Virus record (IMG/VR): IMGVR_UViG_3300042866_001735
Span: 1-34,547 of that record
Length of the DNA stretch: 34,547 bases
Reading direction: 5' to 3' (one strand)
Source of the DNA: a virus
Lineage: Duplodnaviria; Caudoviricetes
A program made the position numbers and the translations under genes. Below the pieces are notes generated by a model. The model was not told where the DNA came from. It saw nothing but the letters and a program-made list of their open reading frames with translations, and made no database searches. Below, piece by piece: positions 597-34,547 of this stretch (its first letter is position 1; each line of letters starts with the position of its first letter).

Positions 597-1579
597 TAAT
601 TTATCCTAAATACTCTAGTACCGTTCTTATTGGGTCTCCATGTTACTCTTGCCAATTCGCTGTCAATTATCATATTCTCACCCATGTATGCTTTTATGTA
701 ATTGGAGTGTTCTCTCTTCTTTTCTTCTAGTTCCATGATCTGAGGCCCAATGGCAAGATACTCCTCAATGTGCTCATCTATCTCAGGAGTGCTGACAATT
801 GAATTCTCTTCCGGATTGGCAAAGCGAGTATTCAAGTACTCAGCATATGCTTCTGTTCCATCAGGAGGAGGAGCAAACTGATCATAGTCCTCTCCTAATT
901 CAAGAGCTAAACGGCCTGCATCTACCCTATCCCAAAAGTCTTTGGTGACATTAGCGATAGCATCCATAATTTCCTGATCCTTCTCAAAGTAGTGGACCTT
1001 CAAATTTCTTCCGTCCTCAAGCGCAACCAAGTAACCTTTGTCTATACCAAGGCCCATCATGTAGGTTTGCAACTGCAAGTAATAAGATGGAGGAACACCG
1101 CCTTCCCACTGCTTACTGCTCCAACCGCTGATTGTCTTAATCTCGATAATTGCCTCAACGCTGCTGAGATTAATCTGACCATTGCGTATGCGAATACCAC
1201 TTTTGCTGATCTGCAAGCGGTCCGGAGAGAAGAATAAGTGAGGATACTCAGGGTTTACGATGTAACCCACCGGCTCGTATAAAGTACGCACTTTGGTCCC
1301 GGCCTCATGATTCTTGAGCATGGACTCATCGTCTCCATCCCAATAGGAAAATATCTCAGCAACAGTCTGTTCCATAATAGTTCCCATGAACATAGGAATA
1401 TTCTGCTGTGCTTTTTGGGGGATGAGACCAATCTTCTGGTAATATAATTCAGCTGGGCTCTTCCAGCTATTTACGCCCATCAATGTTCCGACCTCAGAAG
1501 CCCCTAAGCCTCGTGATCGGAAGTTAAGCCATTCGTCATAGGCTTTATCTTTGTTAATTTGTACTAGTTGTAGATTCAT
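596..1579 (-). CDS. YqaJ-like viral recombinase / lambda-exonuclease-family nuclease
   Basis: EWLNFRSRGLGASEVGTLMGVNSWKSPAELY N-terminus, FSPD, IIEIKT (PD-(D/E)xK) and VPPSYYLQLQTYM motifs. Confidence 0.92.
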   Translation of the reverse strand: MNLQLVQINKDKAYDEWLNFRSRGLGASEVGTLMGVNSWKSPAELYYQKIGLIPQKAQQNIPMFMGTIMEQTVAEIFSYWDGDDESMLKNHEAGTKVRTLYEPVGYIVNPEYPHLFFSPDRLQISKSGIRIRNGQINLSSVEAIIEIKTISGWSSKQWEGGVPPSYYLQLQTYMMGLGIDKGYLVALEDGRNLKVHYFEKDQEIMDAIANVTKDFWDRVDAGRLALELGEDYDQFAPPPDGTEAYAEYLNTRFANPEENSIVSTPEIDEHIEEYLAIGPQIMELEEKKREHSNYIKAYMGENMIIDSELARVTWRPNKNGTRVFRIN

Positions 1580-1817
1580 CTCTTAACACCCATTTTTCAA
1601 ACTCTTCGGCAGCAAGCAGAGTCAATTCTACAAGTTGCTGAGGATTGTAATTCTTATCTTCCTTTGCAATCCAACCGCTCATCAGTTCAACTGCACTCTT
1701 AATAGAAGACTGGCGTATGATGGAAACCTGTTCACTAGCATAATGCTTCATGTGAACAGGTTCCACCTTTTTACCAATCTTATCAGCAAGAGTAGGATTA
1801 GCTACGCCTCGTGACAT
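1554..1817 (-). CDS. Hypothetical protein of the recombination cluster
   Basis: 87-aa ORF in operon context. The SIIRQSSIKSAVEL...AEEFEKWV pattern resembles small phage proteins seen near SSB/recombinase genes. Confidence 0.65.
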   Translation of the reverse strand: MSRGVANPTLADKIGKKVEPVHMKHYASEQVSIIRQSSIKSAVELMSGWIAKEDKNYNPQQLVELTLLAAEEFEKWVLRDESTTSTN

Positions 1818-1819
1818 AA

Positions 1820-2422
1820 TTAAAATGGGAGATCGCTACCTTCTTCTTCCTGGTAAACCTCTTCTGTCTCAACAACAGCAGGACCGGCAACCATATTGTT
1901 AAATGCTTTGGCCTCAGAAGCACGAGCATTCAACTCGTTAACCTTATCAATCCGGAAAGATTCAACCTCAGACCAATCTACAGAAACAAGTTCTCCTTTT
2001 TTGTTGAACACTTCTTCGGGCTCAGGCATACCCTCACCACGCTTATATGCCCACTTCAAAGTCTCACCACCCTGCTTGAGGAAAAGAGCGGACCGCTTTT
2101 TGTCGTCTACAATCTTCAGCGAAGGGATGAATTCTACTTTCTTACTTACATCGATGTTTGGAGCACAGTGTGCAAAAGCAATGAAGTATGCAGTCTGTTT
2201 ACCGCTTTCTCCTTTGAGACGGATTTGCAGTTGATACACCTCGTCATCTTTAATGTCAATACACAGATCTGTACCATAAGTACCCTCTCTTGTACTGATG
2301 CCCAAAATGTAGCCCTCGATAGAATCGTACAGCTCATACTTCTTGTCACCTAAACTCTTGGCAATCTTGCCTTCTCTAATTGTCAGGTAAGTTCTCTTAC
2401 CCATTCCAGTTTTTAATCCCAT
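1820..2422 (-). CDS. Putative single-stranded DNA-binding protein
   Basis: 200 aa with a beta-rich core and an acidic tail ending EEEGSDLPF, the classic SSB C-terminal tip. Same operon as the exonuclease. Confidence 0.7.
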   Translation of the reverse strand: MGLKTGMGKRTYLTIREGKIAKSLGDKKYELYDSIEGYILGISTREGTYGTDLCIDIKDDEVYQLQIRLKGESGKQTAYFIAFAHCAPNIDVSKKVEFIPSLKIVDDKKRSALFLKQGGETLKWAYKRGEGMPEPEEVFNKKGELVSVDWSEVESFRIDKVNELNARASEAKAFNNMVAGPAVVETEEVYQEEEGSDLPF

Positions 2423-2447
2423 ATCTATTTATTTTAAAAATGTAATG

Positions 2448-2495
2448 CGAATATACTACAAGTTTTGGTAATTCCAAATTTTTTGCGTAAAATTG
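2448..2495. promoter_or_regulatory. Overlapping divergent Bacteroidota-type promoters with a central inverted repeat
   Basis: Minus strand: TTTG(2478-2475)-N19-TATATTCG(2455-2448). Plus strand: TTTG(2464-2467)-N20-TAAAATTG(2488-2495). Each is one mismatch from TTTG-N19-21-TAnnTTTG. The inverted repeat TTTGG-TAATT-CCAAA spans 2464-2478. Confidence 0.65.
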
Positions 2496-2504
2496 TAAAA
2501 GAAT

Positions 2505-3510: not shown

Positions 3511-3513
3511 TAA

Positions 3514-4069: not shown

Positions 4070-6289
4070 ATGCCGTATACTATTACGAACCAACCTAACC
4101 AGTTTATCAGCGAAAGCAAAAAAGATAAAACCTGGTACATGGAGAATATCAAGTTTATCATGTCTCACTTTAACAAGAGGCATGACCGCATTTCTAGAGT
4201 TAGAAAAACAAGTGACTTAATGAATCCTGTGGATGAGATTGTTAGGATGTATACCTACTATCTTGGTCGTCAGTATAACAAAGATTATTACTACACCACT
4301 CAGGACCAGAACAATTGTGATTTGCCAACGGTTTGGATTAACGGTCAGAAGGTTACTTCTCTTATTGACTATATGGTGGGTAATGCTATCAGCATGATTC
4401 AGAATATAGATCCGAGCGTTAAATCTGAGTCCCAAGACGCAATAAATAGAAAGACTGAATTATTGGAGGAAGCTCTTTTGAAAATTGAGGCTCCCCAACT
4501 TTTTGAGGCAATGAATCAGTTCGGAATTGATTTCCAACCGCTTGGGCCTCAGACAAATCAGTTCGAAACTCCTGAAGATGTATATCGTTTCATGGAGTAT
4601 AACTATAAAGAAAGAAGCGAGATACTTGCTCTGCGTATGTGCGAAGATATTCTGAATCGTAACTCGTATATAGAAAAGTATAAGCAAGGTTTCCTCTATA
4701 CTCTGTTGGGTGGTTTTATCGGTATCGAGAACAGAATCGAAAATGGTAGACAGTACTTCGATATGATTCTGCCTCACAACCTTATTGTAGATAGGGCAAA
4801 AGATGATGATTTCAATCAGGATGCTCGTTTCGTTGGTAAGGTAGATTGGTTAAACATCACCGATATTATCGAGCGTTATCAGGATTCTCTCACTACAGAG
4901 GAGATTGAAGAGCTGAAGAAGATTAACTCAAATAATCTGTATCAACTGCTTGACCTCACTACCCATCCCTACGCAACCAACTGGGCTTTCAACGTAAACA
5001 ATCTTCCTACCTTGGCAGCAGTTACCGGCTATTGGGTTGGTATGAAAGATTTGGGTTATGAGAAGAGCAAAGATAAATTTGGCAATACTCATTATCAGAA
5101 AATCAGAAACGGAAGAAACGGACAGTATTGGACCAAAACTGTTTATAAAGGAACACTGATCGGAAATAAATATATGGTTGATTGGGGAGAAACTACAAAC
5201 ATCGTAAGAAAGACAGATAACCCTGGCGATGTTCTTCTTCCTCTTCAGGTATTTATTCCCAATATGGTTATGGGAGAAAACAGGTCAGTTACCATGCGTC
5301 TGCACCAACACCAGGATCGTATTGATTACATCACCAATGAGATTACCAAAATGCTGAATAGAGCAAAAGGTAAGGTGTATCTAATTAATCGTCAGAAGCT
5401 AGGTACTTCCACCCCTCGTGACGTAATCAGTGATTTTGAACGTATGGGTATCCACATTACCGATGGTAGCGCAACCGGAGAAGAATTTGTTGCCGGACAG
5501 GATGCACGTTTGGTAGAGGTTGTAGATATGACTCTTGATCCTAACGTACAGCAACTTGTTTCACTTCGTAGAGAAGAAGAAAGACTGATGGAAGAAATCG
5601 TTAACATTCCTAAGATTGCTCTTGGTCAGCAGTCAGGATATGTTGGAGCCAAAACCCAAGCTGGAACTATTGCTCAATCAAATCTTGGAACTTCTTACTT
5701 GTATCAGGGTTATATCCAATTTATACAAAAGCAATTAGCATACGCACTTAATCAGTATAAATTAACTTTGATTGATGAGCCCGAAACTGTTATTCCTGTT
5801 GTAGGCACAAAAGGAAAAGAATGGTTGAAAGTTACCAAAGATTTCCAGTTCGAAGAGTTGGGTGTTTATATCAAAGTTAAAGACTTCATCGATGAGCAGG
5901 CTAGAGAGAGATTACTCGCCATTGCTCAGGCTGCAATGCAGAATGGTGTTATCGATTTCATGGAATACTTGCAGGTTGAAAAGTGCAAGACTTACACAGA
6001 GTTGGAAAACCAACTTGAGTACACCATGAATAAGAAAAAGAGAGATGCCGAAAAGCAACAGCAAATGATGATGATGATGCAACAAATGCAACAGGAACAA
6101 CAGATGCAACAACAGGAAGCTCTTGCAGGTATGAAAGAGGAAGGTGCTAACTATCGTGCTGAACTCGGAATACAAGGAAAAATGGCTGAGAAAGCATTTG
6201 ATAAAGCCACTAGCGAGGAAGCAAGTCCTGAAGATGCAATGGCAGAAGAAGCAATGATGGGCGGTGGCGAAATGATGCCCCCACAATAA
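4070..6289 (+). CDS. Portal protein (crAss-like/P22-like podovirus type)
   Basis: 739 aa, first gene of the head module, upstream of scaffold and capsid. EEIVNIPKIALGQ...TQAGTIAQS segment and Q/M-rich coiled-coil C-terminus are typical of podoviral portals. TAATTTTG at 4056-4063. Confidence 0.85.
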   Translation: MPYTITNQPNQFISESKKDKTWYMENIKFIMSHFNKRHDRISRVRKTSDLMNPVDEIVRMYTYYLGRQYNKDYYYTTQDQNNCDLPTVWINGQKVTSLIDYMVGNAISMIQNIDPSVKSESQDAINRKTELLEEALLKIEAPQLFEAMNQFGIDFQPLGPQTNQFETPEDVYRFMEYNYKERSEILALRMCEDILNRNSYIEKYKQGFLYTLLGGFIGIENRIENGRQYFDMILPHNLIVDRAKDDDFNQDARFVGKVDWLNITDIIERYQDSLTTEEIEELKKINSNNLYQLLDLTTHPYATNWAFNVNNLPTLAAVTGYWVGMKDLGYEKSKDKFGNTHYQKIRNGRNGQYWTKTVYKGTLIGNKYMVDWGETTNIVRKTDNPGDVLLPLQVFIPNMVMGENRSVTMRLHQHQDRIDYITNEITKMLNRAKGKVYLINRQKLGTSTPRDVISDFERMGIHITDGSATGEEFVAGQDARLVEVVDMTLDPNVQQLVSLRREEERLMEEIVNIPKIALGQQSGYVGAKTQAGTIAQSNLGTSYLYQGYIQFIQKQLAYALNQYKLTLIDEPETVIPVVGTKGKEWLKVTKDFQFEELGVYIKVKDFIDEQARERLLAIAQAAMQNGVIDFMEYLQVEKCKTYTELENQLEYTMNKKKRDAEKQQQMMMMMQQMQQEQQMQQQEALAGMKEEGANYRAELGIQGKMAEKAFDKATSEEASPEDAMAEEAMMGGGEMMPPQ

Positions 6290-6330: not shown

Positions 6331-7284
6331 ATGTCAGAATCATTTATGAACGATCTTGCTGAGCAACTAAGAAGTACTCAGACTCCACCTGCGGATTCAG
6401 CTCCTGTAGAAAATACTGCTGTTGATCCGACCCCTGCTGCTGAACCAGTTCCAGCAGAGCCTGTAGTTAATACTACTCCTACCCCGGCAGAGCCTGCTCC
6501 CGTAGAACCTGCTGAAAAACAATGGTGGGAAGAAGATACAACTACTACGACTGCTGCTAATCCTGCTCCTGCACAAGAAAAAACTGAAAAATCTGAGCCC
6601 CAATTAGAATTGGATGATGATTTGAAATTGATTCTTGAGTATAAGAAGAGCGGAAAAACTTTGGCCGATTTTGTTAAAGATTATAAAGTAGAAGATTTCT
6701 CTACCTGGTCTGAGGACAAATTGGTTGAAGAAGGTTTGAAAGAATTCATGAATCTCTCCGAAGATGAAATGGAGCAAGCCAAAATGGAATGGGACTCAGC
6801 ATCAATTTTCCAAAAGAAACAGTGGGCCGATTCTTTTAAACAGAAGTTTGAGGAGAGGAATAATAGTAAACTGAAAGAGTTAACAAAATCCAACACCCAA
6901 GCCGAAGAATATCAGAAGGCCATTTCTGCTAAATACAATGCCGAACTAGATCAGTTCTCAAACGAAGTTGTAGGCAAAGAGTTGTACGGTTTAAAAATCA
7001 CAGACGAAATGTCCAAGGATTTGAAAAACTTCATCGACAAAGAGTTTACTCTCCAAAACGAAGACGGTTCTTTCGACATCGCCAAAATGTATTCCATCGG
7101 GCTTTGGCTCAAATATGGAAAAGATTTGGTAAAAGCCAACATTACTAAAGCCAAGAATGAAGGTAGGGAACAGATAATTAAAGAAGTTTCCAATCCTAGT
7201 AAAAACATGACCGGTGGAAGTTCCGTTGTTGGTTCCGGACTTGAGGCAGCACAAGATGCCTTTAATAGCTTGTTCCAGGCTTAA
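6331..7284 (+). CDS. Putative capsid scaffolding protein
   Basis: Acidic protein with a P/A/E/T-rich disordered N-terminus and helical body, located between portal and major capsid. Confidence 0.7.
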   Translation: MSESFMNDLAEQLRSTQTPPADSAPVENTAVDPTPAAEPVPAEPVVNTTPTPAEPAPVEPAEKQWWEEDTTTTTAANPAPAQEKTEKSEPQLELDDDLKLILEYKKSGKTLADFVKDYKVEDFSTWSEDKLVEEGLKEFMNLSEDEMEQAKMEWDSASIFQKKQWADSFKQKFEERNNSKLKELTKSNTQAEEYQKAISAKYNAELDQFSNEVVGKELYGLKITDEMSKDLKNFIDKEFTLQNEDGSFDIAKMYSIGLWLKYGKDLVKANITKAKNEGREQIIKEVSNPSKNMTGGSSVVGSGLEAAQDAFNSLFQA

Positions 7285-10407: not shown

Positions 10408-10434
10408 AAAATAGTTTTCTAGGTTATAAAAATT

Positions 10435-16914: not shown

Positions 16915-17772
16915 ATGGATCCATTTACTATAGCAGCGATGGCAGCACAAGGCGGTTCTGCTTTGTATCGCCTAATTAAAGCACAACAAGGTTTAGATGC
17001 AGTTAAGAAACAAAGGATGCCTAGTTTAATGGAAGCCATGGCTCCTTTGCAGGAAAACCGCAGACTTTATGAACAACAATTCAGACAAGGGTTGACTCCT
17101 GCAACAAGAAATTTAGCACAGCAGCAATTTGCTGCTACTCAGTTAGGTCAACAAAGAGCTGCTGCTGATTTATCAGGAGGACAGATGTCTTCTGCTTTAT
17201 CTCGTTTAGGTGCGCTGAATACTGGTCAATTTGCACTTGGTCTTGGGGCTCAGAATGAAGCAGCTCAAAGAGCAGGTATGGTAGGAATGATAGGAGCAAA
17301 TCAAGGTATATCAGCACTACAAAGAGCAGATGCAGCACAGCGTTTACAACAGCGTTTGGAATTGGAACGACAATTAGGTTTGGGTTTTCAACAGGCTGGT
17401 CAAGATATTGTTGGTGCTTTTGGAGGATTGGCCATGTCTCAGATGCAACAGAAAAATGCTGAAGCGAATCGTCAAATGTATAGAGATTTATATGGTAATA
17501 AAACTGCACCAACCACTGATGCAACAAAAACTTCTCCTATGACTCCTTCTACTTCTTTTGAAGGATTAACAGGTAGAACAGCTGGAATGTATCCAACAGG
17601 TAGTTCTGAGCTAAGCATTGGGGCTCCGACAATTTCTAGCAGAAGTTTTCCGTCTCTTGGTCCTGATCTCATGAGCGGAATAGGAACATATCCAGGAGAA
17701 GAATATAATTACGATTTAGGTTTACCTACTTTAAGAACAAGATACTCTACACCAAAAACTCGTTTTAGATAA
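16915..17772 (+). CDS. Putative internal virion / DNA ejection protein
   Basis: 285 aa, A/Q/G/M-rich, with a MDPFTIAAMAAQGGSAL hydrophobic N-terminus typical of podoviral ejection proteins. Lies after the nozzle gene. Confidence 0.6.
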   Translation: MDPFTIAAMAAQGGSALYRLIKAQQGLDAVKKQRMPSLMEAMAPLQENRRLYEQQFRQGLTPATRNLAQQQFAATQLGQQRAAADLSGGQMSSALSRLGALNTGQFALGLGAQNEAAQRAGMVGMIGANQGISALQRADAAQRLQQRLELERQLGLGFQQAGQDIVGAFGGLAMSQMQQKNAEANRQMYRDLYGNKTAPTTDATKTSPMTPSTSFEGLTGRTAGMYPTGSSELSIGAPTISSRSFPSLGPDLMSGIGTYPGEEYNYDLGLPTLRTRYSTPKTRFR

Positions 17773-22300: not shown

Positions 22301-25300
22301 TATAGAACAGAGAAGACAAAAAGAATTAGAAGACACTGGAGTCGCAGATATTGATAAAGAAACTATAGAAGAAAAAACACTTCGTGAAATTACTGCTCTT
22401 TTTGAAAAATATAAAGATTCAAAAGATTCAGGAATAGAGTTTTATGTTGCAGAACAAAAAAGAACAGGAGCACTTGATGACAGAGCATATGCGACATTAG
22501 CCAATAAATATTTTGAAGAGCTTTCAGATGATGTAAGAAATTATTTAGAATTTAAAGCACCAGCAATTGATTTTGAAACACCAGAAGGTTATAGTCCTTA
22601 TTATAAAGGCTTTGGTTATAATCGAGACGAAGCTACTGGACATACTCCACAGGTTCATGGCGGCCACATAAGTTTGCTTAAAGAAAACATTTCTCAAGAC
22701 AATCTTGAAAAAGCAAATAAGCAAGATTTAGCAGAAGATATAAATGCTAAATATGATGCAGAATTAACTGCTTTGGAACAAAAACCTACCGAAGCAGTTG
22801 GGCCTCAGCCAAAAACAAATTTACAAGAAATAAGCACAGAAGTTGCACAAGGGGGTGTAACTGATGTATCTTTGCAAAAGATAGAAGATTATGGAAAAGA
22901 AATTGAATCGGGAAATGTTGACTTTGAACGATTTTCACCGGCAGAGCAACGAGGCCTCATTGAAGGAGGTCCAATCCATGTTGAAGCAACCATTATCACT
23001 GGAAAAAGTGATAGAGGAACAGACACTCAGGACGAAAGCAATGACAGGCAAGAGGAGATTGTAGAAGAATACGCCAAGAAAAAGGGTATTTGGACTGAAA
23101 ATGCTCACGCCAAATTAAATCAGCAGCACGGAAAACCTATTAATAGTGGCCAAGAATCTATAGTTTGGTTAGATAGAAAACGTGGTGTTGTAATCAAATC
23201 TTCTAACACTAGAAATTACACTACTTTAAGAGAAGCACTCGATAGCATTACATTAAGCAATGCTTATTTTCCAGCAGCAAAAATAACTGTTATTGGTTTT
23301 GGTACTGATGCAGAAGGCAATTTTGAAATTATTACTGAGCAACCCTATATTCAGGGCACAGAAGCTACAGAACAGGAAATAAAAGATTATTTCAACAATT
23401 TAGGTTTTACAGAAAACGAAAGATTATATGTTGGTAAAGATGCCTTTGGTAATGAAGAAGTTATTTTCAAAGATGCTGCACCTAAAAACGTAATCAAAAC
23501 TCCCGAAGGGAATATTATCCCCATCGATCTAATTGCCAAAATTAACAAGCCGGAGCTTAATGCAAATGGTACACGTATTGTGCCATCTACTGTTGCAGAA
23601 GAAGTAGCTCCTGCAGAAGTTACTCCTACGGAAGTTACTCCTACAGAGGCTGCTCCAGAAGCAGTTGGGCCTCAGGCACAAACCACTGCTGAAATATCTA
23701 AACCGAAAACATTTAAAGAATTTGAACAAAAAGCAAATTCAATTGCTCAAGAAAAAGAAAATATTGACTTTACAAAAGATAGTGTTGTTAAAGATGGTAA
23801 TCAAAATCCAATAGTAGTTTATAATAATACAAACGAAACAGAAACTCGTTTCGGTGAAGAAAAACCAACAGGATTATTTTTTACTACTAACCCTCAAACA
23901 TTTTCTGAATATGGTAAAAACAAATATGCAGCAGTATTAAACATCAAAAATCCTTATTATGCTTCGCAGCCTGAGGTAAGAAGAGAAGTTGACATAAAAA
24001 AATTAAAAGAAGCCGGATATGATGGAATTATAACTCATCCTAAATATAAGTATGATAGATATGTTCCTGTTAGTGAGGATGTAGAGGGAGCTCAAAAAGA
24101 ATATATTGAAAATCAAAGAAAGTACGATAATGTAAAAGGTAAAGACAACAGAAACGAACTAAATATGTCTGAGGCATATGAAGTTGTTGCTTTTTATCCA
24201 GAGCAAATAAAAGTTGTAGAATCAGCAGAAAATAAATCTCTTTCAGAAACTGCACCCGAAGCAACTACACCTCCCACAGAAACTACTCCTACTGAAGGTA
24301 CAGCCGAAGGTTATGGGTCTCAGAACACAATCGTAACAAAAGAAGATTATGACCAGGCAATAAAGAATCTTCGTAATCCTAATATACCATCCGGATTTGA
24401 TTTCTCTAAATTAGGAGATTTGATAAAAGCCGGTATGTATCACATAGAAGCTGGATCTCGTTCTTTTGCGAACTTCAGCAAAAAGATGATCGAGCAGTTT
24501 GGTCAAGCTGTTAAAAAATACTTACCTGTTGTTTTCAGAAGAAGTAATACTCAGTTACAGCAACAAGCTGCTGCCCCTGGTCGCACCAAAGCTCCTAAAA
24601 AAGCTCCTCGTCCTACTTTTGACGAAGTAAGAAAGAACATAAGAAAAGATCGTGATGATTTTGTAAAAGCAAATAAAACACAGAGTCCTAGTATTATTGG
24701 TCAATATTTGCTATCAAAAGGATATACATTAGGGCAGATAAAAACACATCTTCCTGAATATAATTCTTACTGGCAGAAAAAGGCTCGTGAACTTTTCATG
24801 GACTATGTAAAGGTACACCAAAATAAAATTGAACAGCGTAGAAAAGAAATTGCTGATTTCATGGATAAAAATCCTACGTTGGAATATGAAGACATCTACG
24901 AACAGTTAAAAGATAAATACAGCGATTTCGAATTGTTCAAAGCGTTTTATGAAGACGGAGCAAGCCCTAGTTTATTGGATGAAACGTTTGGTACAGAATA
25001 TAGACAAACCATTCAGAATTTAATTGACTCCAAAGGTTACAACCCTGATTTTCTCCGGGACATGGATGAAGATATTCGTACTCGCAAAGTAGAAAAGAAT
25101 TTGGGTGAGGCTAAATCTATATATGCAGATTTGCAAGACTTTGCCTCAGCAGAAGAATTGTTAGACGCAGCAGCAGAAGTATTAGGTATTTCTGGTGTTG
25201 AAGAGGCAATGAAAACCGCAACTGATAAAGTAAGAGCGGAGAACAAAAAGAAAGCTGATATATTAAAAGCGTATGGCAAAGCAATGAAGGGAGGTTTCAA

Positions 25301-28300
25301 ATCTGAAGATTCCGAACTCATTAAAAATATATCCGATATACTTTCTTTCTCCGGTAGAATGCTGAGAATGGGTCGTGGTCTATTCATGACAGAAAAAGGT
25401 TTGGCTGATTTGATTATCAGGAACTTGAGTAATATCACCTACAAAAAAGATAGCAACTTCGCAAAAACCAAAAAAGCATTTAGAGTTCCTGAAAAGACAC
25501 AGCAGAAAATTAGAGAGCTAGTTAAAAAGTATTTTGAAACAAAAGCAAAATTAGATGAAGCGATAGCACAGGTTGAAGATGGAGCAAATGCCTTTACAGA
25601 TGAAGCGTTTGATGAATTTAACAAAGCTAGAGCAGAACATCAAAAAGCGTCTACCGAATTAAAAGGATTGGTGAACAGATTATATGGAAGTAGAGCACCT
25701 CTGATTTCTCGGTGGTTTACATCTATGACATCCATGGCACTTCTTTCTTTCAGAACCATTTTTGTGGGTTTGATTGGTAATATGGAAATGATGTTGGCAT
25801 CTATGCCAAGAAAAACATGGGTTGGAAAGTTATTAGGTTGGACACGAATTTTAGCTAATTTTATAGTTGGACTTCCGATTTTAGCAAAAAAAGGAACACC
25901 TTTGGCATATGAAGCCACCAAAAGAGGAACAGGGGTTGGTATTGACCCTTCTATATATCGTAAACTTGCTTTCCAACAAGGAATACAACAAATTAAAGAT
26001 ATACTTCGTAAGGGATTAACAGAACAAACTTCTTCAGAAAGAGACTTTCTCCAGGGTTATGCAGAAATAGATGGTGTAAAAGATTTTCAGTTAGGATTCA
26101 AAATGATCTCTAAGATGATTAAGAATATTGCTGGAAAAGAGAAAATGACCGATGAAGAATTTGGTGCTGCGTTTGATAAAATGCTTATTGCTCTTGAGGA
26201 AAAAGACGCAAGCGGAAATCCAAAATTAGCCGGAATGCATAGCAAAGGTTATTACGCTGCTGCTGCTTTGCTTAGAGGATTTTTTGGTTCAATACCCACT
26301 ATTACAGGAAGAGCGATTGCGCTATCGGGCGATAGGGTGTTTTATCAATATGGCTATTATGAATTTTTGGCTGCATATGCTAATTCGAAAGGAATAACGG
26401 ATCCTGCCGAAGTAAAGAGATTTATTGCACTTAACAGTGTGGGAGACTCTGAAGCAGCAAGGGCAGCAGAAAGAGCAGCTAATAAGAGAATCTTTGCACA
26501 GAATAATGCGATAGTTAGATTCTTCGGATCGACAAAGGCGAAGTTGGATCAACTAGAACAGAATATTTATGGTGCGAAAATTAAAAAGAAAGTACAAGGT
26601 AAAGGAATTCAAGCTGCTGTAACAGGACTTGGGGCATATCCTATAGTCGCAGCTAAAATTGCATTGAATGCTTTTTCTCCTTTTGTAACTATTCCTTCTA
26701 ACGTTGTATCAAAATATCTTAGAATTGGTGTGCCTGTTTTCCCATTAGTAATGGCGGTTCGGACTCAGATGCAATTGAACAGCAGAATGAATGAGTATCA
26801 GAAAAATTATAGTCTGAAGGACAATGCTGAAATGAGTGAGACCACAAAGAAAAAGATGGAAGCGGATCGAGTTGCATTATTTGAACAACAAAGACTAGCT
26901 GCTCAGTATTGGACAGAATTTTTTCAAGGTGCACAATTAGCTGGTCTTAGTTATCTTTTGGTATCGACTGGTTCGGTAGGTGCTCCATATGGTGATGATG
27001 ATGAATCCAAAAAGAGAGCAAGAGCTGCTGGTATAGCACAGCAAGATGCAGGAAAATTAAACTTGTCTCATCTTTTTGATGTAGTAACTGGAAAAGAGAC
27101 AAGAGGAAGAGTTGCTAAAAAAGGAGATATAACCATTGATTATCGAAACTTAGGTATGGCAGGATTTTCTATAAGCACCTGGGCATCTGCTGGCGCATAT
27201 CTCAAAACGGAGCAACTAAAAAATAAAAAATTAATGGGTGCTGACGAAGATGTTATAGGTATGGTAAATGCCCATCTTATTACAGAGAGTTTAAAAAATG
27301 GTGTAACCCAATTAGGTTTTATTCAGAATATTTCTAATTTTATTAGCGGAATAAAATCAGAGAAAGGCACAGAAGCTCTCACTAGTAGTTTGTTAACAAC
27401 CGTTTTAACTGTTCCGACTTTAAGCTATGGCGTATTTAGTCCTTTCGAAAGAATAGAAGGTATAGGCTCAGATCCTCTTCGTGGTTATCATCCAGATTTG
27501 GAAAGTAGTGATGTGTTTATGGGTGAAGTGGGTGCAAGGGTATGGACCAAATTAACAGCTCGCTCTCCTTTGTTTGGATTTGGTTTGAGAAAAGAAGACG
27601 GTACTTTTGCTGCTCCTTTGAAAACCCTGGGCTTTACTCCTTCGCAATTTTATCGCCCTCAGATTGGGCCTCATGGTGAAAGATTGTATAAGAAGTCAAC
27701 ATTCTGGGATACTCGTAGCGGAAGTACGGTAGATAAATTCTTAGCTTTTGCTCAAGCATCTCTTGATCCACTTAATATGAGTGATTACGAAGGTTTTGTT
27801 TCTCAGGTTAAACCATTTGATATGAAAAAAGAATATAAAAAAGGTGATTTCATAGAATGGAATAATAATATATGGGTTGTTTTAAAAGATAAAATCAAAG
27901 GCAAAAGCCCCAAAGATGCAAAAATTAGGGTAGCCGGAGAGACATCGTTAGATGAAGATTATTTTTTAGTTGACGAAAAAACTAAGTTTTTTGATGCTAA
28001 TCAGTGGAGGAGAGACAAAGAAGGTACAAGAAAAACTCAGCTATTGTTTGACTTTGTTAACGAGTATGAGAAAGCTACCGGAGACAGAAAAGAATATGGT
28101 TTGTTTAGCAAATTGTACACCGATCCAGTTAAATTCAAAGATGAAGATGGTGAATTCGCTGTATACATACCCATGGAAGAGCAAAGAAAATTGAGCATTC
28201 TGCGTGGCGAAGCTATGGCAAGGAGTTGGGACTCAGACGAAGTACAAAATCGTCTTGACATCATTCAAAAAACTGCGGAAGACGAGAACATTTCCGATGC

Positions 28301-28580
28301 CGATTGGAAAAATTCAACAAAAGAATTGTTCTTGGATTACATGAAAGGTGCTATGGATGAAAATCAAAACCGCAGTGGTGGATTAATCGATAGAGTAAAT
28401 GAGGCAATAAAAGGAGTAGAAGAAAGCCCTGAATACGCTGCCATCGTTAGAGACGGTATAGTCAGGAGTGTTAAAGAAGGTTTGTTAACCGAAGCGGAGT
28501 TTGATCGCTTGGCTAAGCATACCGTAGCAGGTAATTTTATTGCGAGCATGGACAAAAGCAAGTTGAAATTTAGAAAATAA
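19317..28580 (+). CDS. Giant virion-associated polyvalent protein (kinase-like and ADP-ribosyltransferase-like modules)
   Basis: 3087 aa. Kinase-PolyVal-like segment at ~22920-23545 (SGQESIVW, VVIK, IITEQPYIQG, FKDAAPKNV, IPID). ART-PolyVal-like segment at ~23778-24215 (PIVVYNNT, GLFFT, LNIKNP, GYDGII, EVVAFYPEQIK). Hydrophobic G/A-rich helices elsewhere. Confidence 0.8.
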   Translation: MAIQNINELYDKLSANENFSEFNFGSADDFKLYLEELPEQKKEKFYNAWLEDEDISKDQFENLVKKKETGRTGILSSALGSIDFASPSVSKSEPQAIAPEVQAPEATAIEDVTAPLEPLGYGKSFGGTPSGPKPGPTFKWENYLSDFQKKYPNELKPQDYATGAFYDKIYKKEGERLKTEFNIQSAKQLEQFSKGEPITAPTFVEDKLKTGIEKAREESLRIGAQKERGFFEPKEKEKKAIPTKLDVEEQRVFTDNPIVQYNIDPVAIAEGREFVDRRKAKALEDYNKEVAELKADKKSIYSQIPFYDFQDENGNTMALDEISIGSSLFNNKPITLFVKEGKMAANVGVPGFRNGRLDEQSFKNHLLSLGFGEETAEQEISRLKQVYIEDLGKQRMDYLKNSFYSMSGDNPEMANARYLEYYNNKAIDLLSDDEKEGYNLSKHIDALYDKLDKESKAPGALGAKNDKIESIKRTINVLQNQLNQIRENPNNLYDWRTGEFVNKSIKNAPRFAQIQQENKEFQIKYGKEPKNVLVEKRDKLIQQREEILNLMKQDGLEIPEKGTFASAVKAMQISAARTAGTGQIRLPDGSYTNAARYEKKMDEYNKQLFNVERELYGINRAVMLNEDVALRNKVETGIVESGVKFFAEAGKSIGRTITPGSVSEDAKSDWEIRNSLFPTLEKSGFIIEPKLKSAARKDVSEMISDSAGTLLEAMVGIAAGNALLPAVKTMKWANKFKDILSKKYGKIGESLFDSTADMIRSGVIFETAGQGFATGVGEQAGQVAFDALDLDKFFGNKGRFLEYFARVLTGGGAETVQEYAGQYLQTLADQGIDIEKNFKTAFGRDSESALDQFLQIAITSALFSGASNAKILLATRTRLNDVLTKPGVASQYGVILDEDTRKEVEEVLNVVDDKLNDKSTVQTTEKKTKEISEDYIPEPVSTATVEPAAEMEAPEGVTPAAAEVIPGEEGVGPIEATPEAVGPQTEADIEAKKADIEQRRQKELEDTGVADIDKETIEEKTLREITALFEKYKDSKDSGIEFYVAEQKRTGALDDRAYATLANKYFEELSDDVRNYLEFKAPAIDFETPEGYSPYYKGFGYNRDEATGHTPQVHGGHISLLKENISQDNLEKANKQDLAEDINAKYDAELTALEQKPTEAVGPQPKTNLQEISTEVAQGGVTDVSLQKIEDYGKEIESGNVDFERFSPAEQRGLIEGGPIHVEATIITGKSDRGTDTQDESNDRQEEIVEEYAKKKGIWTENAHAKLNQQHGKPINSGQESIVWLDRKRGVVIKSSNTRNYTTLREALDSITLSNAYFPAAKITVIGFGTDAEGNFEIITEQPYIQGTEATEQEIKDYFNNLGFTENERLYVGKDAFGNEEVIFKDAAPKNVIKTPEGNIIPIDLIAKINKPELNANGTRIVPSTVAEEVAPAEVTPTEVTPTEAAPEAVGPQAQTTAEISKPKTFKEFEQKANSIAQEKENIDFTKDSVVKDGNQNPIVVYNNTNETETRFGEEKPTGLFFTTNPQTFSEYGKNKYAAVLNIKNPYYASQPEVRREVDIKKLKEAGYDGIITHPKYKYDRYVPVSEDVEGAQKEYIENQRKYDNVKGKDNRNELNMSEAYEVVAFYPEQIKVVESAENKSLSETAPEATTPPTETTPTEGTAEGYGSQNTIVTKEDYDQAIKNLRNPNIPSGFDFSKLGDLIKAGMYHIEAGSRSFANFSKKMIEQFGQAVKKYLPVVFRRSNTQLQQQAAAPGRTKAPKKAPRPTFDEVRKNIRKDRDDFVKANKTQSPSIIGQYLLSKGYTLGQIKTHLPEYNSYWQKKARELFMDYVKVHQNKIEQRRKEIADFMDKNPTLEYEDIYEQLKDKYSDFELFKAFYEDGASPSLLDETFGTEYRQTIQNLIDSKGYNPDFLRDMDEDIRTRKVEKNLGEAKSIYADLQDFASAEELLDAAAEVLGISGVEEAMKTATDKVRAENKKKADILKAYGKAMKGGFKSEDSELIKNISDILSFSGRMLRMGRGLFMTEKGLADLIIRNLSNITYKKDSNFAKTKKAFRVPEKTQQKIRELVKKYFETKAKLDEAIAQVEDGANAFTDEAFDEFNKARAEHQKASTELKGLVNRLYGSRAPLISRWFTSMTSMALLSFRTIFVGLIGNMEMMLASMPRKTWVGKLLGWTRILANFIVGLPILAKKGTPLAYEATKRGTGVGIDPSIYRKLAFQQGIQQIKDILRKGLTEQTSSERDFLQGYAEIDGVKDFQLGFKMISKMIKNIAGKEKMTDEEFGAAFDKMLIALEEKDASGNPKLAGMHSKGYYAAAALLRGFFGSIPTITGRAIALSGDRVFYQYGYYEFLAAYANSKGITDPAEVKRFIALNSVGDSEAARAAERAANKRIFAQNNAIVRFFGSTKAKLDQLEQNIYGAKIKKKVQGKGIQAAVTGLGAYPIVAAKIALNAFSPFVTIPSNVVSKYLRIGVPVFPLVMAVRTQMQLNSRMNEYQKNYSLKDNAEMSETTKKKMEADRVALFEQQRLAAQYWTEFFQGAQLAGLSYLLVSTGSVGAPYGDDDESKKRARAAGIAQQDAGKLNLSHLFDVVTGKETRGRVAKKGDITIDYRNLGMAGFSISTWASAGAYLKTEQLKNKKLMGADEDVIGMVNAHLITESLKNGVTQLGFIQNISNFISGIKSEKGTEALTSSLLTTVLTVPTLSYGVFSPFERIEGIGSDPLRGYHPDLESSDVFMGEVGARVWTKLTARSPLFGFGLRKEDGTFAAPLKTLGFTPSQFYRPQIGPHGERLYKKSTFWDTRSGSTVDKFLAFAQASLDPLNMSDYEGFVSQVKPFDMKKEYKKGDFIEWNNNIWVVLKDKIKGKSPKDAKIRVAGETSLDEDYFLVDEKTKFFDANQWRRDKEGTRKTQLLFDFVNEYEKATGDRKEYGLFSKLYTDPVKFKDEDGEFAVYIPMEEQRKLSILRGEAMARSWDSDEVQNRLDIIQKTAEDENISDADWKNSTKELFLDYMKGAMDENQNRSGGLIDRVNEAIKGVEESPEYAAIVRDGIVRSVKEGLLTEAEFDRLAKHTVAGNFIASMDKSKLKFRK
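22249..23675 (+). repeat. Three in-frame direct repeats GAAGCAGTTGGGCCTCAG (EAVGPQ)
   Basis: Copies at 22249-22268 and 22789-22808 (20 bp identical, including the leading CC) and 23658-23675 (18 bp). Confidence 0.95.
23601..23660 (+). repeat. Degenerate 15-bp tandem repeat (EVAPA EVTPT EVTPT EAAPE linker)
   Basis: gaagtagctcctgca gaagttactcctacg gaagttactcctaca gaggctgctccagaa. Confidence 0.85.
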
Positions 28581-29564: not shown

Positions 29565-29921
29565 ATGAGTTTCGAGATAACTAGACAGGAGCTGCTTAAA
29601 CAAGCAAATGAGTTACTCGTAAAGTATAATCAGACGAAGGATCCTGAATTTAAAGCACAGGAAACTAGGATACGCAAAATTGTTGCTGACCTAATTACTT
29701 TGGGTTATCTTGGGTCTCAGGACTTACAAGACATCACCGATAATGGAGCTACTACAACAAACGCTGTAACTATCAGTAATAATATAACAGCAAATGCTTT
29801 CATACGACTTGACGGAGTATCTACTCAGTTTTTAAAAGCCGATGGAAGTGTAGATAACAATACGTATTTAACTGCATCTAGTGCAGAAATAGTTAATCCT
29901 TTCTTATTAATGGGAGCATAA
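29565..29921 (+). CDS. Short tail-fibre-like protein
   Basis: LQDITDNGATTTNAVTI and QFLKADGSVDNNTYLT are repeat units common in fibre proteins of Bacteroidota phages. Confidence 0.55.
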   Translation: MSFEITRQELLKQANELLVKYNQTKDPEFKAQETRIRKIVADLITLGYLGSQDLQDITDNGATTTNAVTISNNITANAFIRLDGVSTQFLKADGSVDNNTYLTASSAEIVNPFLLMGA

Positions 29922-30251: not shown

Positions 30252-31493
30252 ATGGCACAAGGATTTACCAAACCATCAGACGCAGTAACAATCAAAGATT
30301 CGGCTAATTTAGATGCATTTAGCCGTTTGCGTGTGAGCAATCCTTTGATTCTGTTTAATAGCCAATTTACTTACGATCTTAATCCGATTCTATTTGAGCA
30401 AATTACAAATGGAGCCGGGGCTGTTATAGCGCATGACACAACCAATAGATGTGCTACTTTAACTTTTGCCGGAACAGGTGCAGGAGGTAGTTCTTATATG
30501 CAGAGCTATGAATATTTGCCGTACCAACCAGGTCGGTCTCAGCTCATATTCGTAACATTCAATATGATTTCTGCTGTAGCAAATGTAGTTAAATTTGCCG
30601 GATACTCAGATGGTGTTAATGGTATAGAATTTCAACTTAACGGAACAACTAAACAATTCCACATTTATTCTGGAAGTGGAGCAGGCAATGAGACCGTTAC
30701 GCAATCATCCTGGAACCTAGATAAATTGGATGGTACAGGACCGAGCGGAATTACGCTTGATATTACCAAGACTCAAATCTTGGTTATAGATATTCAAGCT
30801 CTTTATGTAGGTCGTGTTCGTATAGGTTTTGATATAGGTGGTCAAATTATTTATGCTCACGAGTTTAAACACGCCAATAACGAGACTCATCCTTATATTC
30901 AATCTGCTAATTTACCTGTGAGATGTGGCATGACGTGTTCAGCACTATCTAGTACAACAATGGACTTTATATGCTCTGCTGTAATATCAGAGGGTGGTAG
31001 TGAAGATATAAACGTATTTGGATATACTTTTCAAACTGCTGCAAGTGTTACTACTTCTACGGCTGGTGTTCAGCTAATGACTCTGAGGCCCAAACTTACG
31101 TTCAATGGGATAACCAATAGAATGCGTGTGGCGTACATTGATGTTGAAATTTTCAATACAGGATCTACTAACCAACACGTTAGGTGGGATTTATGTATAG
31201 GACAAGCCATTACAGGTGGAACCTGGGCTGATGTGAATACTACCTATTCTGGGGTAGAAGTAAATACAGGAGGAACTTTATCCGGCTCTCCTGCGATTGT
31301 AATTGATGCTGGTTGGGCCTCAGTTGGTGCTAATACATCCACAGTAATAAATACAGCAGTTATATCTCGATACCCAATGACATTAGATGCTGCTGGTAAT
31401 AATAGAATATTAGGATCACTTACACTTAAGTTGACAGCCCTTGCAGGAACTCCCATAGTCTATGGTGCTGTAAAATTCAGAGAGATTAGGTAA
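30252..31493 (+). CDS. Tail-associated protein, probable lectin/ConA-like beta-sandwich
   Basis: 413 aa with DAFSRLRVSNP, YQPGRSQ, WNLDKLDGTGPSG and YVGRVRIGF motifs. Tail cluster context. Confidence 0.55.
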   Translation: MAQGFTKPSDAVTIKDSANLDAFSRLRVSNPLILFNSQFTYDLNPILFEQITNGAGAVIAHDTTNRCATLTFAGTGAGGSSYMQSYEYLPYQPGRSQLIFVTFNMISAVANVVKFAGYSDGVNGIEFQLNGTTKQFHIYSGSGAGNETVTQSSWNLDKLDGTGPSGITLDITKTQILVIDIQALYVGRVRIGFDIGGQIIYAHEFKHANNETHPYIQSANLPVRCGMTCSALSSTTMDFICSAVISEGGSEDINVFGYTFQTAASVTTSTAGVQLMTLRPKLTFNGITNRMRVAYIDVEIFNTGSTNQHVRWDLCIGQAITGGTWADVNTTYSGVEVNTGGTLSGSPAIVIDAGWASVGANTSTVINTAVISRYPMTLDAAGNNRILGSLTLKLTALAGTPIVYGAVKFREIR

Positions 31494-31521
31494 ATCAAAA
31501 AAAATTTTGTATTTTTGAATT

Positions 31522-32594: not shown

Positions 32595-32718
32595 ACTATC
32601 CGAAATATCCCCCGAAAATTACAGCCAATATGTTGGCTTACTGACTGAAACTGACAAAGATTTACTCATTGGTCAATGGTATATGGATGACAGCTATTTT
32701 AATCCTATAATTTTGTAA
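32587..32718 (+). pseudogene. Truncated paralog (43 aa) of the 33329-33556 gene
   Basis: MYKLSEISPENYSQYVGLLTETDKDLLIGQWYMDDSYFNPIIL* aligns with YVGLLTVEQKDQLVGQWYAPDSFFNP of the downstream ORF and stops where the endonuclease cassette starts. Not in the ORF track. Confidence 0.8.
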
Positions 32719-32726
32719 ATTTGTAT

Positions 32727-33332
32727 ATGGCTTACGTTTACAGACATATAAGATTAGATAAGAATGAACCGTTTTATATTGGTATAGGTTCTGATAAAGC
32801 AAGGTGTTACACTAAACAAACAAGAAATAAACATTGGCATTCTATTACAAAGCATACAGAATATAGAGTTGATATTATTTTTGATGATTTATCTGTTGAA
32901 GAAGCGAAAGAAAAAGAAAAAGAACTTATTGCATTATATGGTAAAAAGTCAAATGGTGGTTTATTAGTTAATATAACTGATGGTGGAGATGGATGTTGGG
33001 GAGTTAAGGCAACAGAAGAACAACTTGAAGCAAGAAGAAAAAGAATGATTGAAAGCAATCATTTTAAAGGTAAACAGCATACTCCAGAAACAAAACAAAA
33101 AATGAGATTAGCTAAATTAGGAGTTAAAAGACCTAAAGAAGGTTATAATAAAAGAGCTGAAAAAATGAAAAAATATGTAGGTTTTAATCATTGGAATAGT
33201 AAACCTGTATTAGATTTTGAAACTGGAGTTTATTACGGTAGCGTTAAAGAGGCATCTATTTATGCTGATATGAATGTTACTACATTTATAAGAGCAATGA
33301 AAAAAGGAATTTTAAAATATAAAAGAGTATGA
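32727..33332 (+). mobile_element. Free-standing GIY-YIG homing endonuclease with NUMOD3 and a C-terminal HTH-like domain
   Basis: YVYRH...FYIGIG, conserved R, E (EKELI) and LVNITDGGDG; NUMOD3-like FKGKQHTPETKQKMRLAK; NUMOD1-like YGSVKEAS. Visibly more AT-rich than its flanks. The ATG at 32727 is preferred over the TTG at 32721. Confidence 0.88.
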
Positions 33333-33556
33333 GTACAATATACGTAGGTTTATTAACCGTTGAACAGAAAGACCAACTTGTTGGCCAGTGGTATGCGCCA
33401 GACAGTTTTTTTAACCCTCTGGAAGACAATGACGATAGGTGGGTAATATCAGTTGAAGAAATCAGCCAATGCGTTAACCCTGATTTTATGTGGGTGCAAA
33501 ACTTACCGCTTATTCCGTATGTTCCCAAACCAGCACCACCTTTTAAAACTGAATAA
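33329..33556 (+). CDS. Small conserved tail-cluster protein (possible fibre chaperone)
   Basis: 75 aa, ATGA-coupled to the endonuclease stop. Full-length version of the 32587 fragment. Confidence 0.7.
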   Translation: MSTIYVGLLTVEQKDQLVGQWYAPDSFFNPLEDNDDRWVISVEEISQCVNPDFMWVQNLPLIPYVPKPAPPFKTE

Positions 33557-33575
33557 AAATTCGTATCTTTGAATT

Positions 33576-34547
33576 ATGGCAATTACATTCGGAGATTTTC
33601 TCTCAATATTCACTACAAACGATGCTAGCGGTGGCCGTGCCATCAAAGCTACTTTTGATAATGGTGTAGATGATATTCAAAACTATCTCACCAAAAATGA
33701 TCCTGCCGGTGGACGTGCTATAAAAATCGTTAACGTTGGGGCTCCGCTTGGGCCTCAGTTTTGGACTGAAGCATATACTGCTACTACTCAAGCCACCTCT
33801 TCTTGGACAGCTATTGGTGCAGCAACTAATATAAACGCTGCTATTATACCAAAAGGTACGGGGGCTATTGTTGCATCTTTGCCTGATGGAACTGCGACAG
33901 GTGGTAATGCAAGGGGTGTAAATGCTGTTGATTTTCAAAGGGTAAGAAGTAACGCTAACCAAGTTGCAAGTGGAATTACAAGTGCTATTTTAAGCGGTCA
34001 AAATAACAGAATTTCATCAACAAGAACAAATAGTTTTTGCGTTATTGGTGGTGGTCAAAACCATTTGATAAGCCAATTATATGGTGCAACTATTGCAGGA
34101 GGAGATACTAATACTATTGGCGATAATGACGGATGGCAATGTACTATTGGTGGAGGTGCTACGAATACAATAACAGGTCGTATAGCGTCAACAATCGTTG
34201 GAGGTAATGGCAATACTGCTTCAAATAATTTTGTTACTATGGGCGGTAGAAATAACCTTGGTAGTGGAGATACATCAACTCTTATGGGTGGTCAGTCAAA
34301 TACTGCATCAGGAGCGTTTAGTGCTATCATAGGCGGACAATCCAATACAGCAAGTGGCAACCATTCTACTGCGATAGGGCAAGGTAGTATAGCAAGTGGA
34401 CCAAATTCCTTTGCAGGGGGAGGCGGTAATTCGGGCGGGTCATATTCTTTTGTTTTTGGTAGTTCACAAGGTAACGCTGAGGCAAGTATTGCAATAGGTA
34501 GAGGTTGCACCGCAAATAATCCAGGTCAGCGTGGCATGATTGCTATG
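33576..34547 (+). CDS. Tail fibre/spike with trimeric beta-helix (YadA-head-like) repeats, partial
   Basis: Hand translation MAITFGDFLSIFTTNDASGGRAIK...GGNARGVNAVDFQ...GGQSNTASGAFSAIIGGQSNTASGNHSTAIGQGSIASG, open to the window end (324 codons). Promoter box at 33564-33571. Not in the ORF track. Confidence 0.8.
   Translation, partial: MAITFGDFLSIFTTNDASGGRAIKATFDNGVDDIQNYLTKNDPAGGRAIKIVNVGAPLGPQFWTEAYTATTQATSSWTAIGAATNINAAIIPKGTGAIVASLPDGTATGGNARGVNAVDFQRVRSNANQVASGITSAILSGQNNRISSTRTNSFCVIGGGQNHLISQLYGATIAGGDTNTIGDNDGWQCTIGGGATNTITGRIASTIVGGNGNTASNNFVTMGGRNNLGSGDTSTLMGGQSNTASGAFSAIIGGQSNTASGNHSTAIGQGSIASGPNSFAGGGGNSGGSYSFVFGSSQGNAEASIAIGRGCTANNPGQRGMIAM

What the first reader, a model, noticed from the sequence alone, without database searches (positions are those of the whole stretch)
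630..33758. Window-wide 11-bp motif WTGGGNCTCAG embedded in coding sequence
Seen: 21 exact copies (16 plus, 5 minus) and 6 more TGGGNCTC cores (three end in CG, so the consensus is near WTGGGNCTCMG). All four bases occur at N. The motif is read in different frames: G-[PSTA]-Q, W-[AD]-S, LGLK, and on the reverse strand SEPQ/SESQ/LRPK. It often forces the GGG Gly codon, which is otherwise uncommon here, so the constraint appears to act on DNA rather than protein. A rough hand estimate at ~36% GC gives well under one expected copy in the window. Inference: a selected, non-palindromic signal. Options are a Chi-like recombination/protection site (the phage has its own YqaJ exonuclease, SSB and RusA), programmed nick sites like those in T5 or phiKMV-like virion DNA, a binding or loading site for a packaged protein, or a modification target. 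I do not recognise it as a described motif.
Basis: partly seen in the sequence, partly recalled or inferred. Interest (0 to 1): 0.9.

Follow-up and report, generated by a model that had tools for sequence, protein, structure and literature searches.

The report
Recombinase half-sites written through phage genes
A lake phage and its whole clade write one asymmetric DNA word into their protein-coding genes about once per kilobase, on both strands, and the word is likely the binding arm of the phage's own cut-down serine recombinase, which would use dozens of one-armed sites instead of one attachment pair.

Summary
The motif is real: 21 copies against 0.24 in synonymous shuffles. It is the top of a degenerate family (33 sites in the window). 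It is enriched in 14 of 14 large relatives tested, with lineage drift (TGGGNCTCAG, GGGGNCTCAG, GGGGNNTCAG, TGGGNCTCAC), fast site turnover and both strands used. All 13 near-complete relatives encode a ~228-aa serine recombinase: intact catalytic domain plus integrase-type recombinase domain, no zinc ribbon. The gene lies outside this fragment. In the window's subclade a weak mirrored arm upstream (SSWW, 59 of 363 vs 24.5) defines a 2-bp centre. Counted from it, the intolerant GG and CTC fall where Bxb1's loop (6-7) and helix (9-11) read, and the free N falls at 8. Strain variants of the giant polyvalent protein swap cassettes at motif-bearing linkers, once exactly 3' of that centre. Against: no two-armed site, no genome-wide breakpoint excess, a weak mirror in other subclades, and 37 unrelated viral loci with similar short recombinases show no clear motif. 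Binding is untested and a host origin could not be tested. Best reading (0.45): dispersed cut-and-reseal sites serving replication. One-strand virion nicks and polar Chi sites fit poorly.

The parts
621..33759 (.). Motif field: 21 strict and 33 wider-pattern sites, mean gap about 1 kb, spacing indistinguishable from random. Variant sites (first T of the 10-mer): 1908+, 2016+, 9961+, 16323-, 16539-, 17619+, 21846+, 26759+, 28935+, 29251-, 30533+, 33737+
740..750 (-). strict copy, in YqaJ gene (sense)
4425..4435 (-). strict copy, portal (antisense)
4542..4552 (+). strict copy, portal
6593..6603 (-). strict copy, 317-aa gene between portal and capsid (antisense)
6789..6799 (+). strict copy, 317-aa gene
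13242..13252 (+). strict copy, muzzle gene
14382..14392 (+). strict copy, muzzle gene
15660..15670 (+). strict copy, muzzle gene
16066..16076 (+). strict copy, muzzle gene
17243..17253 (+). strict copy, 285-aa gene
19591..19601 (-). strict copy, polyvalent gene (antisense); homology with related strains stops at 19608, just past its upstream arm
19981..19991 (+). strict copy, polyvalent gene
22246..22269 (+). cassette-junction copy 1 with partial inverted left arm and centre CA (22255-22256); best two-armed score among 366 group A sites
22790..22808 (+). cassette-junction copy 2, left arm CCGAA, centre CA; start of kinase cassette
23657..23675 (+). cassette-junction copy 3, centre CA; start of ART cassette; related strains diverge one base after the centre
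24252..24263 (+). left arm plus centre CA without a motif arm; a contig of run X10 continues from exactly here into a full motif arm and extra sequence
24305..24323 (+). cassette-junction copy 4, left arm CCGAA, centre GT
28226..28236 (+). strict copy, polyvalent gene
29710..29720 (+). strict copy, 118-aa gene
31083..31093 (-). strict copy, 413-aa virion gene (antisense)
31313..31323 (+). strict copy, 413-aa virion gene
33748..33758 (+). strict copy, last gene, 12 bp after a variant copy
19317..28580 (+). 3087-aa polyvalent protein gene: Kinase-PolyVal aa 1244-1410, ART-PolyVal aa 1495-1635; cassettes bounded by motif-bearing linkers vary between strains
596..2422 (-). In relatives this module also holds the serine recombinase (G001, L067:4475-5161), which is missing from this 51% fragment

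Best explanation
The word is likely the recognition arm of the phage's own short serine recombinase, which would bind dozens of one-armed sites around a 2-bp centre a few bases upstream and is predicted to cut and reseal there to serve genome replication rather than to integrate. SHOWN: the motif, its enrichment on both strands, its clade-wide presence and drift, fast turnover, the upstream WW/SSWW signal in group A, the core status and intact active site of the recombinase, its catalytic-plus-recombinase-domain architecture, its place in the replication module, and cassette polymorphism at motif-bearing linkers. INFERRED: that the recombinase reads the motif (about 0.55), with the long helix and its linker on the inner W,T bases, the loop on GG (+6,+7), the recognition helix on CTC (+9 to +11) and the partner subunit on the weak inner mirror. 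INFERRED, weaker: that most events reseal in place, as a site-specific swivel that relaxes replicating DNA or leaves a transient 3'-OH for the phage polymerase. True exchange would be rare and limited to sites with a partial second arm and a matching centre, such as the CA-centred cassette linkers.
For: Geometry: intolerant positions are GG and CTC, with N free. The centre comes from upstream flanks alone: SSWW 59 of 363 deduplicated sites vs 24.5+-4.9 (max 41 in 300 frame-matched draws), the peak of 24 offsets; WW 219 vs 138.6+-9.2; above the null maximum in 4 of 6 frames, with control anchors at 0.39-0.42 vs 0.60. That centre puts GG at 6-7 and CTC at 9-11, the Bxb1 loop and helix positions (passages, 10.1101/2024.05.09.593242), inside the 13-bp contact area of the recombinase domain (passages, PMC3783163). 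SSWW is commoner beside weaker arms (47 of 245 vs 12 of 118, p=0.033). Protein: present in 13 of 13 near-complete genomes; Y6, R8, S10, Q14, Q24, D45, R55, R80, R83 invariant in 72 of 72 sequences; helix T213 69 of 72 and K216 71 of 72. Model's best matches are the Bxb1 and SPbeta integrases. Two deeper lineages with divergent recombinases also carry the motif (L322, L327). The recombinase-free outgroup MW202828 has 1 GGNCTCAG in 60.9 kb. One strain junction lies exactly 3' of the predicted centre and another one base later. The neighbouring gene resembles the C-terminal domain of phage replication initiators.
Against: No binding or cleavage data. No full two-armed site, and none conserved across genomes. 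A profile-correlation scan ranks the proposed axis at r=0.37 but an unrelated axis at 0.47, and gives -0.11 in groups B/C; in B/C the WW excess is smaller (104 vs 81 of 229). 37 unrelated viral loci with 202-243-aa relatives of the recombinase show no clear dispersed word, while 12 of 15 in-clade loci in the same test did, so this protein type is not sufficient. Ends of shared segments are not enriched at motifs (56 vs 65). Motif changes do not track helix residues beyond kinship. Cassette junctions are also 18-36-bp direct repeats at codon boundaries, so homologous exchange explains them, and relatives' giant proteins do not generally have motif-bounded domains. The LI paper counts from G0, so the register is uncertain by one base.
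Confidence: 0.45

Rival explanations
1. The word is read by a host protein (a Chi-like signal for the host helicase-nuclease, or a host recombinase or nucleoid-protein site), and the phage accumulates it for protection or recruitment; lineage drift follows host genus.
For: The core is conserved across lineages that share only 37-59% protein identity. Dispersed, degenerate and fast-turning like Chi or uptake sequences (general knowledge). Earlier AI notes describe other phages filled with host dif half-sites (untested leads). Unrelated short recombinases do not bring a motif.
Against: No polarity. The footprint of about 20 bp with an inner dyad is long for Chi (recalled). The only bacterial bin holding a relative has 30 matches in 3.4 Mb, 15 of them on two contigs, and is probably mis-binned.
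Confidence: 0.2
2. The recombinase binds these sites only as a coat, roadblock or loading antenna, and cuts at one cryptic site elsewhere.
For: Same geometric evidence. Gene order is identical in 13 genomes but for one inversion, so sites are rarely recombined.
Against: No conserved two-armed site near the gene or elsewhere. A G preference at the predicted scissile side (128 vs 75 of 363) suggests chemistry at the dispersed sites.
Confidence: 0.12
3. Operator or stoperator-like sites for another phage regulator, such as the 137-aa HTH-like protein at 2740-3153.
For: Near-core gene (11 of 13 near-complete genomes); sense bias in late genes (176 vs 52).
Against: That protein is only 14-23% identical between subclades and was not found in G020, which has a dense motif. 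In leftward genes enrichment is equal on both strands (12.5 vs 14-fold). No clear intergenic preference in group A.
Confidence: 0.08
4. Programmed virion nicks of the T5/tf kind, made by a phage nuclease or the terminase.
For: Asymmetric word in coding sequence of a podovirus-like phage, with a modest top-strand excess in late genes (28 vs 15-fold).
Against: The described motif is near-exact, 13 copies, all on one strand (passages, PMC11780129). Here it is degenerate, 33-51 sites per record under the wider pattern, on both strands.
Confidence: 0.08
5. A modification target whose sites are created by biased repair, as proposed for cyanobacterial HIP1 (recalled).
For: Group A genomes encode methyltransferases.
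Against: Those families are patchy: family 46 in 8 genomes, all group A, while the motif spans all groups. Graded tolerance of mismatches.
Confidence: 0.07

Closest known systems
Large serine integrases and their att half-sites (Bxb1; Listeria LI/A118 integrase; PMC3783163, bioRxiv 2024.05.09.593242)
   Same: Catalytic domain plus recombinase domain; the motif's read and unread positions match the loop (6-7) and helix (9-11) pattern around a free central dinucleotide.
   Different: No zinc ribbon or coiled coil (228 aa); no attP-like two-armed site; tens of one-armed sites inside genes; the phage has its own polymerase and primase-helicase, and no true prophage context was found.
Resolvases and invertases (Tn3, gamma-delta, Sin, Gin)
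   Same: Small size and the same catalytic residues (passages, PMC2794168); serine recombinases can relax DNA by cut-rotate-reseal (abstract, PMC5062993).
   Different: Integrase-type recombinase domain instead of a simple HTH; no res site or invertible segment; described relaxation needs a synapse of two sites.
Nick motifs of Pseudomonas phages tf and Rembedalsseter (PMC11780129) and T5
   Same: Asymmetric word enriched across a phage clade despite low nucleotide identity.
   Different: Both strands, degenerate, several times more sites; no physical nick data here.
Chi sites, DNA uptake sequences and HIP1 (recalled)
   Same: About one per kb, in coding sequence in tolerated frames, both strands, positions not conserved.
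   Different: In a phage, with an apparent phage-encoded reader; no polarity; host enrichment untested.
Polyvalent phage proteins (Kinase-PolyVal, ART-PolyVal)
   Same: Giant protein with swappable enzyme modules.
   Different: In this species the module linkers carry the motif with a partial second arm.

Membership tests
Large serine integrase system | Serine catalytic domain with intact active site | tested here: met
   (72 of 72 invariant at nine positions; the D67 equivalent is T, S or N)
Large serine integrase system | Recombinase domain (PF07508) | tested here: met
Large serine integrase system | Zinc ribbon and coiled coil | tested here: not met
   genes end at 225-249 aa in 19 of 19 genomes
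Large serine integrase system | One two-armed attP site and integration | tested here: not met
   no strong inverted pair at any gap; one genome-contig hit, a 23-kb contig in a likely mis-binned MAG
Large serine integrase system | Half-site read at 6-7 and 9-11 from a free centre | tested here: inconclusive
   fits in group A; weak in B/C; no binding data
Resolvase/invertase system | C-terminal HTH and a res or inverted crossover pair | tested here: not met
   recombinase domain instead; no conserved site by the gene
T5/tf-type virion nick motif | All copies on one strand, near-exact word | tested here: not met
T5/tf-type virion nick motif | Physical nicks in virion DNA | not testable with these tools
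   only assembled contigs were listed
Chi or other host signal | Over-represented in the host chromosome | not testable with these tools
   host unknown; no Bacteroidota genome handle reachable
Chi or other host signal | Polarity along the replicon | tested here: not met
   12- to 28-fold on both strands
Stoperator-type repressor sites | One orientation to transcription, mostly between genes (recalled) | tested here: not met

The most novel reading that the evidence does not exclude
A lytic phage clade has turned a truncated serine integrase into a genome-wide, site-specific swivel or primer-generating nickase. It works on tens of one-armed sites written through coding sequence, beside a stand-alone initiator C-terminal domain, and as a side job reshuffles cassettes of its giant polyvalent protein. 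It would be to serine recombinases what type IB topoisomerases are to tyrosine recombinases.
Probability: 0.25. Interest if true: 0.92.

Novelty: new variant of a known kind. Interest (0 to 1): 0.77.

Why it matters
Serine recombinases are known for acting on one or two defined sites. A core phage enzyme with tens of self-written sites inside essential genes would be a new use of the family and a natural minimal enzyme with a ready-made specificity series (four motif variants paired with sequenced proteins), directly testable in vitro and of interest for recombinase engineering. If a host protein reads the word instead, it gives a strong candidate for a Bacteroidota protective or recombination signal. 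Ten literature searches returned no description of the motif, the clade or such an arrangement; the library lacks most subscription journals.

Tried and rejected
Chance or protein constraint: rejected. Even spacing: not supported; p for low gap variation 0.04-0.61 in 7 genomes. Internal palindromes TGAGNCTCA and TGGGNCCCA: not enriched. A perfect att or res site: none. Recombination hot spots at genome scale: 880 internal alignment ends, 56 near motifs vs 65 expected. Motif as a general domain boundary in giant proteins: not seen in relatives; 12 giants scanned, 5 with any Pfam hit. Residue-to-base covariation: nothing beyond kinship in 37 records. A rule that short recombinases bring a motif: not seen in 43 of 47 loci examined (four short or redundant loci left out; L271 and L288 reached log p of -8 and -9 and were not followed up). 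No cultured relative: capsid had no match, portal only about 23% to Flavobacterium FpV4-type phages and MW202828. A scan for relatives of the polyvalent gene found none, nor did a scan for the P0143-type recombinase (best 52%). A closer outgroup without the recombinase was not found. No RNA holder listed. The complex prediction for the recombinase and its neighbour was not available, and the wide PDB fold search of the neighbour was busy. The other strong words (AACCNNNGGTT, CCTA-N5-TGCA, TGCA-N5-TGCA) are clustered arrays, a separate feature.
Full report
OBSERVATION. The counts are exact: 21 copies of WTGGGNCTCAG (16 +, 5 -) and 27 cores, all inside genes. Synonymous shuffles give 0.24 copies, maximum 3 in 500. 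Three copies belong to one linker repeat, which does not change the conclusion.

THE PHAGE. The window is a 51% fragment of a podovirus-like phage with distant crAss/SU10-type portal, capsid, ring and muzzle genes, YqaJ, RusA and a 3087-aa polyvalent protein. Near-identical DNA is in lake metagenomes. Starts lack Shine-Dalgarno words (26 of 403) and are A-rich upstream, which by recalled knowledge points to a Bacteroidota host; this is inference. The capsid protein found 65 viral loci at 59-100% identity. I fetched 23 of these records whole; 13 are near-complete at 63-72 kb. Genes were called with my own ORF script.

THE MOTIF IS CLADE-WIDE AND DRIFTS. 29 of 30 records hold TGGGNCTCAG; the reversed control was 0 in 24 of 30 and at most 2 in the rest. 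De novo searches gave four variants (coding counts vs synonymous shuffles, related genomes pooled): A, TGGGNCTCAG 120 vs 3.8; B, GGGGNCTCAG 35 vs 0.9; C, GGGGNTTCAG 25 vs 2.3 with position 6 loose; D (G020), TGGGNCTCAC 20 vs 2.2. Each of 14 large genomes exceeds the maximum of 60 shuffles with its group's word, chosen from the same data. Two deeper metagenomic lineages carry it too. GG and CTC tolerate almost no change; positions 1, 2 and 9 do. 59 of 69 aligned sites occur in at most two genomes, and spacing is about random. Both strands are enriched 12- to 28-fold over coding opportunity.

A CANDIDATE READER. Protein clustering leaves, besides virion genes, YqaJ, the 200-aa gene, terminase, polymerase and a ~228-aa serine recombinase in 13 of 13 near-complete genomes (primase-helicase in 12). 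The five records lacking the recombinase, including this window, are partial and gave no meaningful tblastn hit. It has Resolvase and Recombinase domains, invariant catalytic residues (residue roles from passages of PMC2794168) and no zinc ribbon, and its model matches Bxb1 and SPbeta integrases best. It lies in the replication module next to a ~100-aa gene whose model resembles the C-terminal domain of phage replisome organizers and initiators (the named matches have E of 0.005-0.06, so this is a lead).

GEOMETRY. In 363 deduplicated group A sites (from 797 raw) the flank upstream of the word is non-random: W at -6 and -5, S at -8 and -7, G at -2. SSWW at -8..-5 mirrors W,T,S,G at 0..3 about a centre at -3/-2: 59 observed vs 24.5+-4.9. 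It exceeds the null maximum in 4 of 6 reading frames and is absent behind control anchors; 24 of the window's 33 sites have WW (counted). Counting from that centre, GG is +6,+7, N is +8, CTC is +9 to +11 and AGA is +12 to +14. Passages of the Bxb1 preprint place the recombinase-domain loop at 6-7 and its helix at 9-11. Passages of the LI structure paper give a 13-bp contact area with major-groove contacts at 9-11, counted from G0, so one base of uncertainty remains. Against: a cruder correlation scan is ambiguous and negative in groups B/C, where only part of the signal repeats, and no site has two strong arms.

INDEPENDENT TESTS, MIXED. The distant, recombinase-free MW202828 lacks the word and has a clustered palindrome instead (n=1). 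But 37 unrelated, mostly GC-rich viral loci with similar short recombinases show no clear dispersed word, so the protein type alone does not predict a motif. Mosaic boundaries are not enriched at sites. Gene order is fixed except for one inversion. Residue-to-base covariation could not be separated from kinship.

CASSETTES. Contigs from related lake strains show the giant protein's cassettes missing, replaced or reordered at the motif-bearing linkers. X8 and X10 skip 540 bp between copies 22259 and 22799. X11 and X17 lack the ART cassette, diverging one base after the centre of copy 23666. X10 leaves the window exactly after the CA at 24262-24263 and continues with a full motif arm. Four of five such left arms use C-ending codons of Pro, Thr or Ala (11-16% usage), which spell the inverted inner arm. 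These linkers are homologous repeats, so ordinary homologous exchange is an adequate alternative, and the pattern is not general in relatives.

MECHANISM. Free exchange among 50 sites with all 16 centres would be lethal, and synteny shows it is rare. I therefore favour cut-and-reseal at one-armed sites, as a swivel or a source of transient 3' ends in the replication programme. Controlled rotation by Bxb1 is described (abstract only, PMC5062993) but needs a two-site synapse, so single-site activity is my inference. Odds: the recombinase reads the word, about 0.55; with catalysis at dispersed sites, 0.45; host factor, 0.2.

LITERATURE AND EARLIER NOTES. Ten searches found no description of the motif or arrangement. 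Papers seen: passages of PMC3783163, 10.1101/2024.05.09.593242, PMC2794168 and PMC11780129; abstract and outline of PMC5062993; listing only for PMC3517423. No supplements were read. Statements on Chi, uptake sequences, HIP1, stoperators, T5 and Bacteroidota start signals are recalled. Earlier AI notes on phages carrying many dif half-sites are untested parallels, not support.

VERDICT. Real, clade-wide and not found in the papers searched. It works most like an integrase half-site but fails membership of integrase, resolvase and nick-motif systems. Interest 0.77.

Noticed in passing
G015, G016, G021, G025 vs G010, G011, G022 (oriented coordinates): One block from family 41 to the terminase is inverted in group B. 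In G010 a motif lies in the gap at one breakpoint (67865), and in G011 there are oppositely oriented motifs near both (7205 and 14856), but their centres differ and group B keeps no trace.
   Followed up: partly
G017 9848-11533, G014 27093-27656, G019 56886-58291; G021 66159-66519; G012 15829-16057: Clustered iteron-like arrays (AACCNNNGGTT; a 15-bp tandem; a 9-bp tandem), possible origins or coding repeats, separate from the dispersed motif.
   Followed up: partly
window 1273, 3595, 7211, 8011, 11833, 13347, 14724, 21742, 29957, 31556, 33706: CCGGTGG occurs 11 times, 10 on the + strand; 10 in genes vs 2.0 (max 6 in 200) in synonymous shuffles. A possible second, polar word.
   Followed up: partly
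L067:5458-5757 (G001) and 16 homologues: Stand-alone ~100-aa protein resembling only the C-terminal domain of phage replication initiators (DUF6291, DUF7833, DnaT-like leads), encoded between primase-helicase and the recombinase.
   Followed up: partly
L309/L310 (MW202828.1) 43747-55156: About 15 copies of a perfect 16-bp palindrome clustered in the rightward small-gene region, many just before genes; an operator-like array.
   Followed up: partly
window 32727-33332: 201-aa NUMOD3 homing-endonuclease-like gene inserted among tail genes.
   Followed up: no
G031 contigs C18, C22, C40, C41: A Sphingomonadaceae MAG holds a clade contig and several motif-dense contigs, probably mis-binned phage DNA; the motif could serve as a binning marker for this clade.
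   Followed up: no
L070:2371-3764 (G010): A C5 methyltransferase appears in two ORFs with an HNH gene directly upstream.
   Followed up: no
window 30800-32400: Strain contigs diverge repeatedly in the tail-gene region, with no obvious link to motif sites.
   Followed up: no
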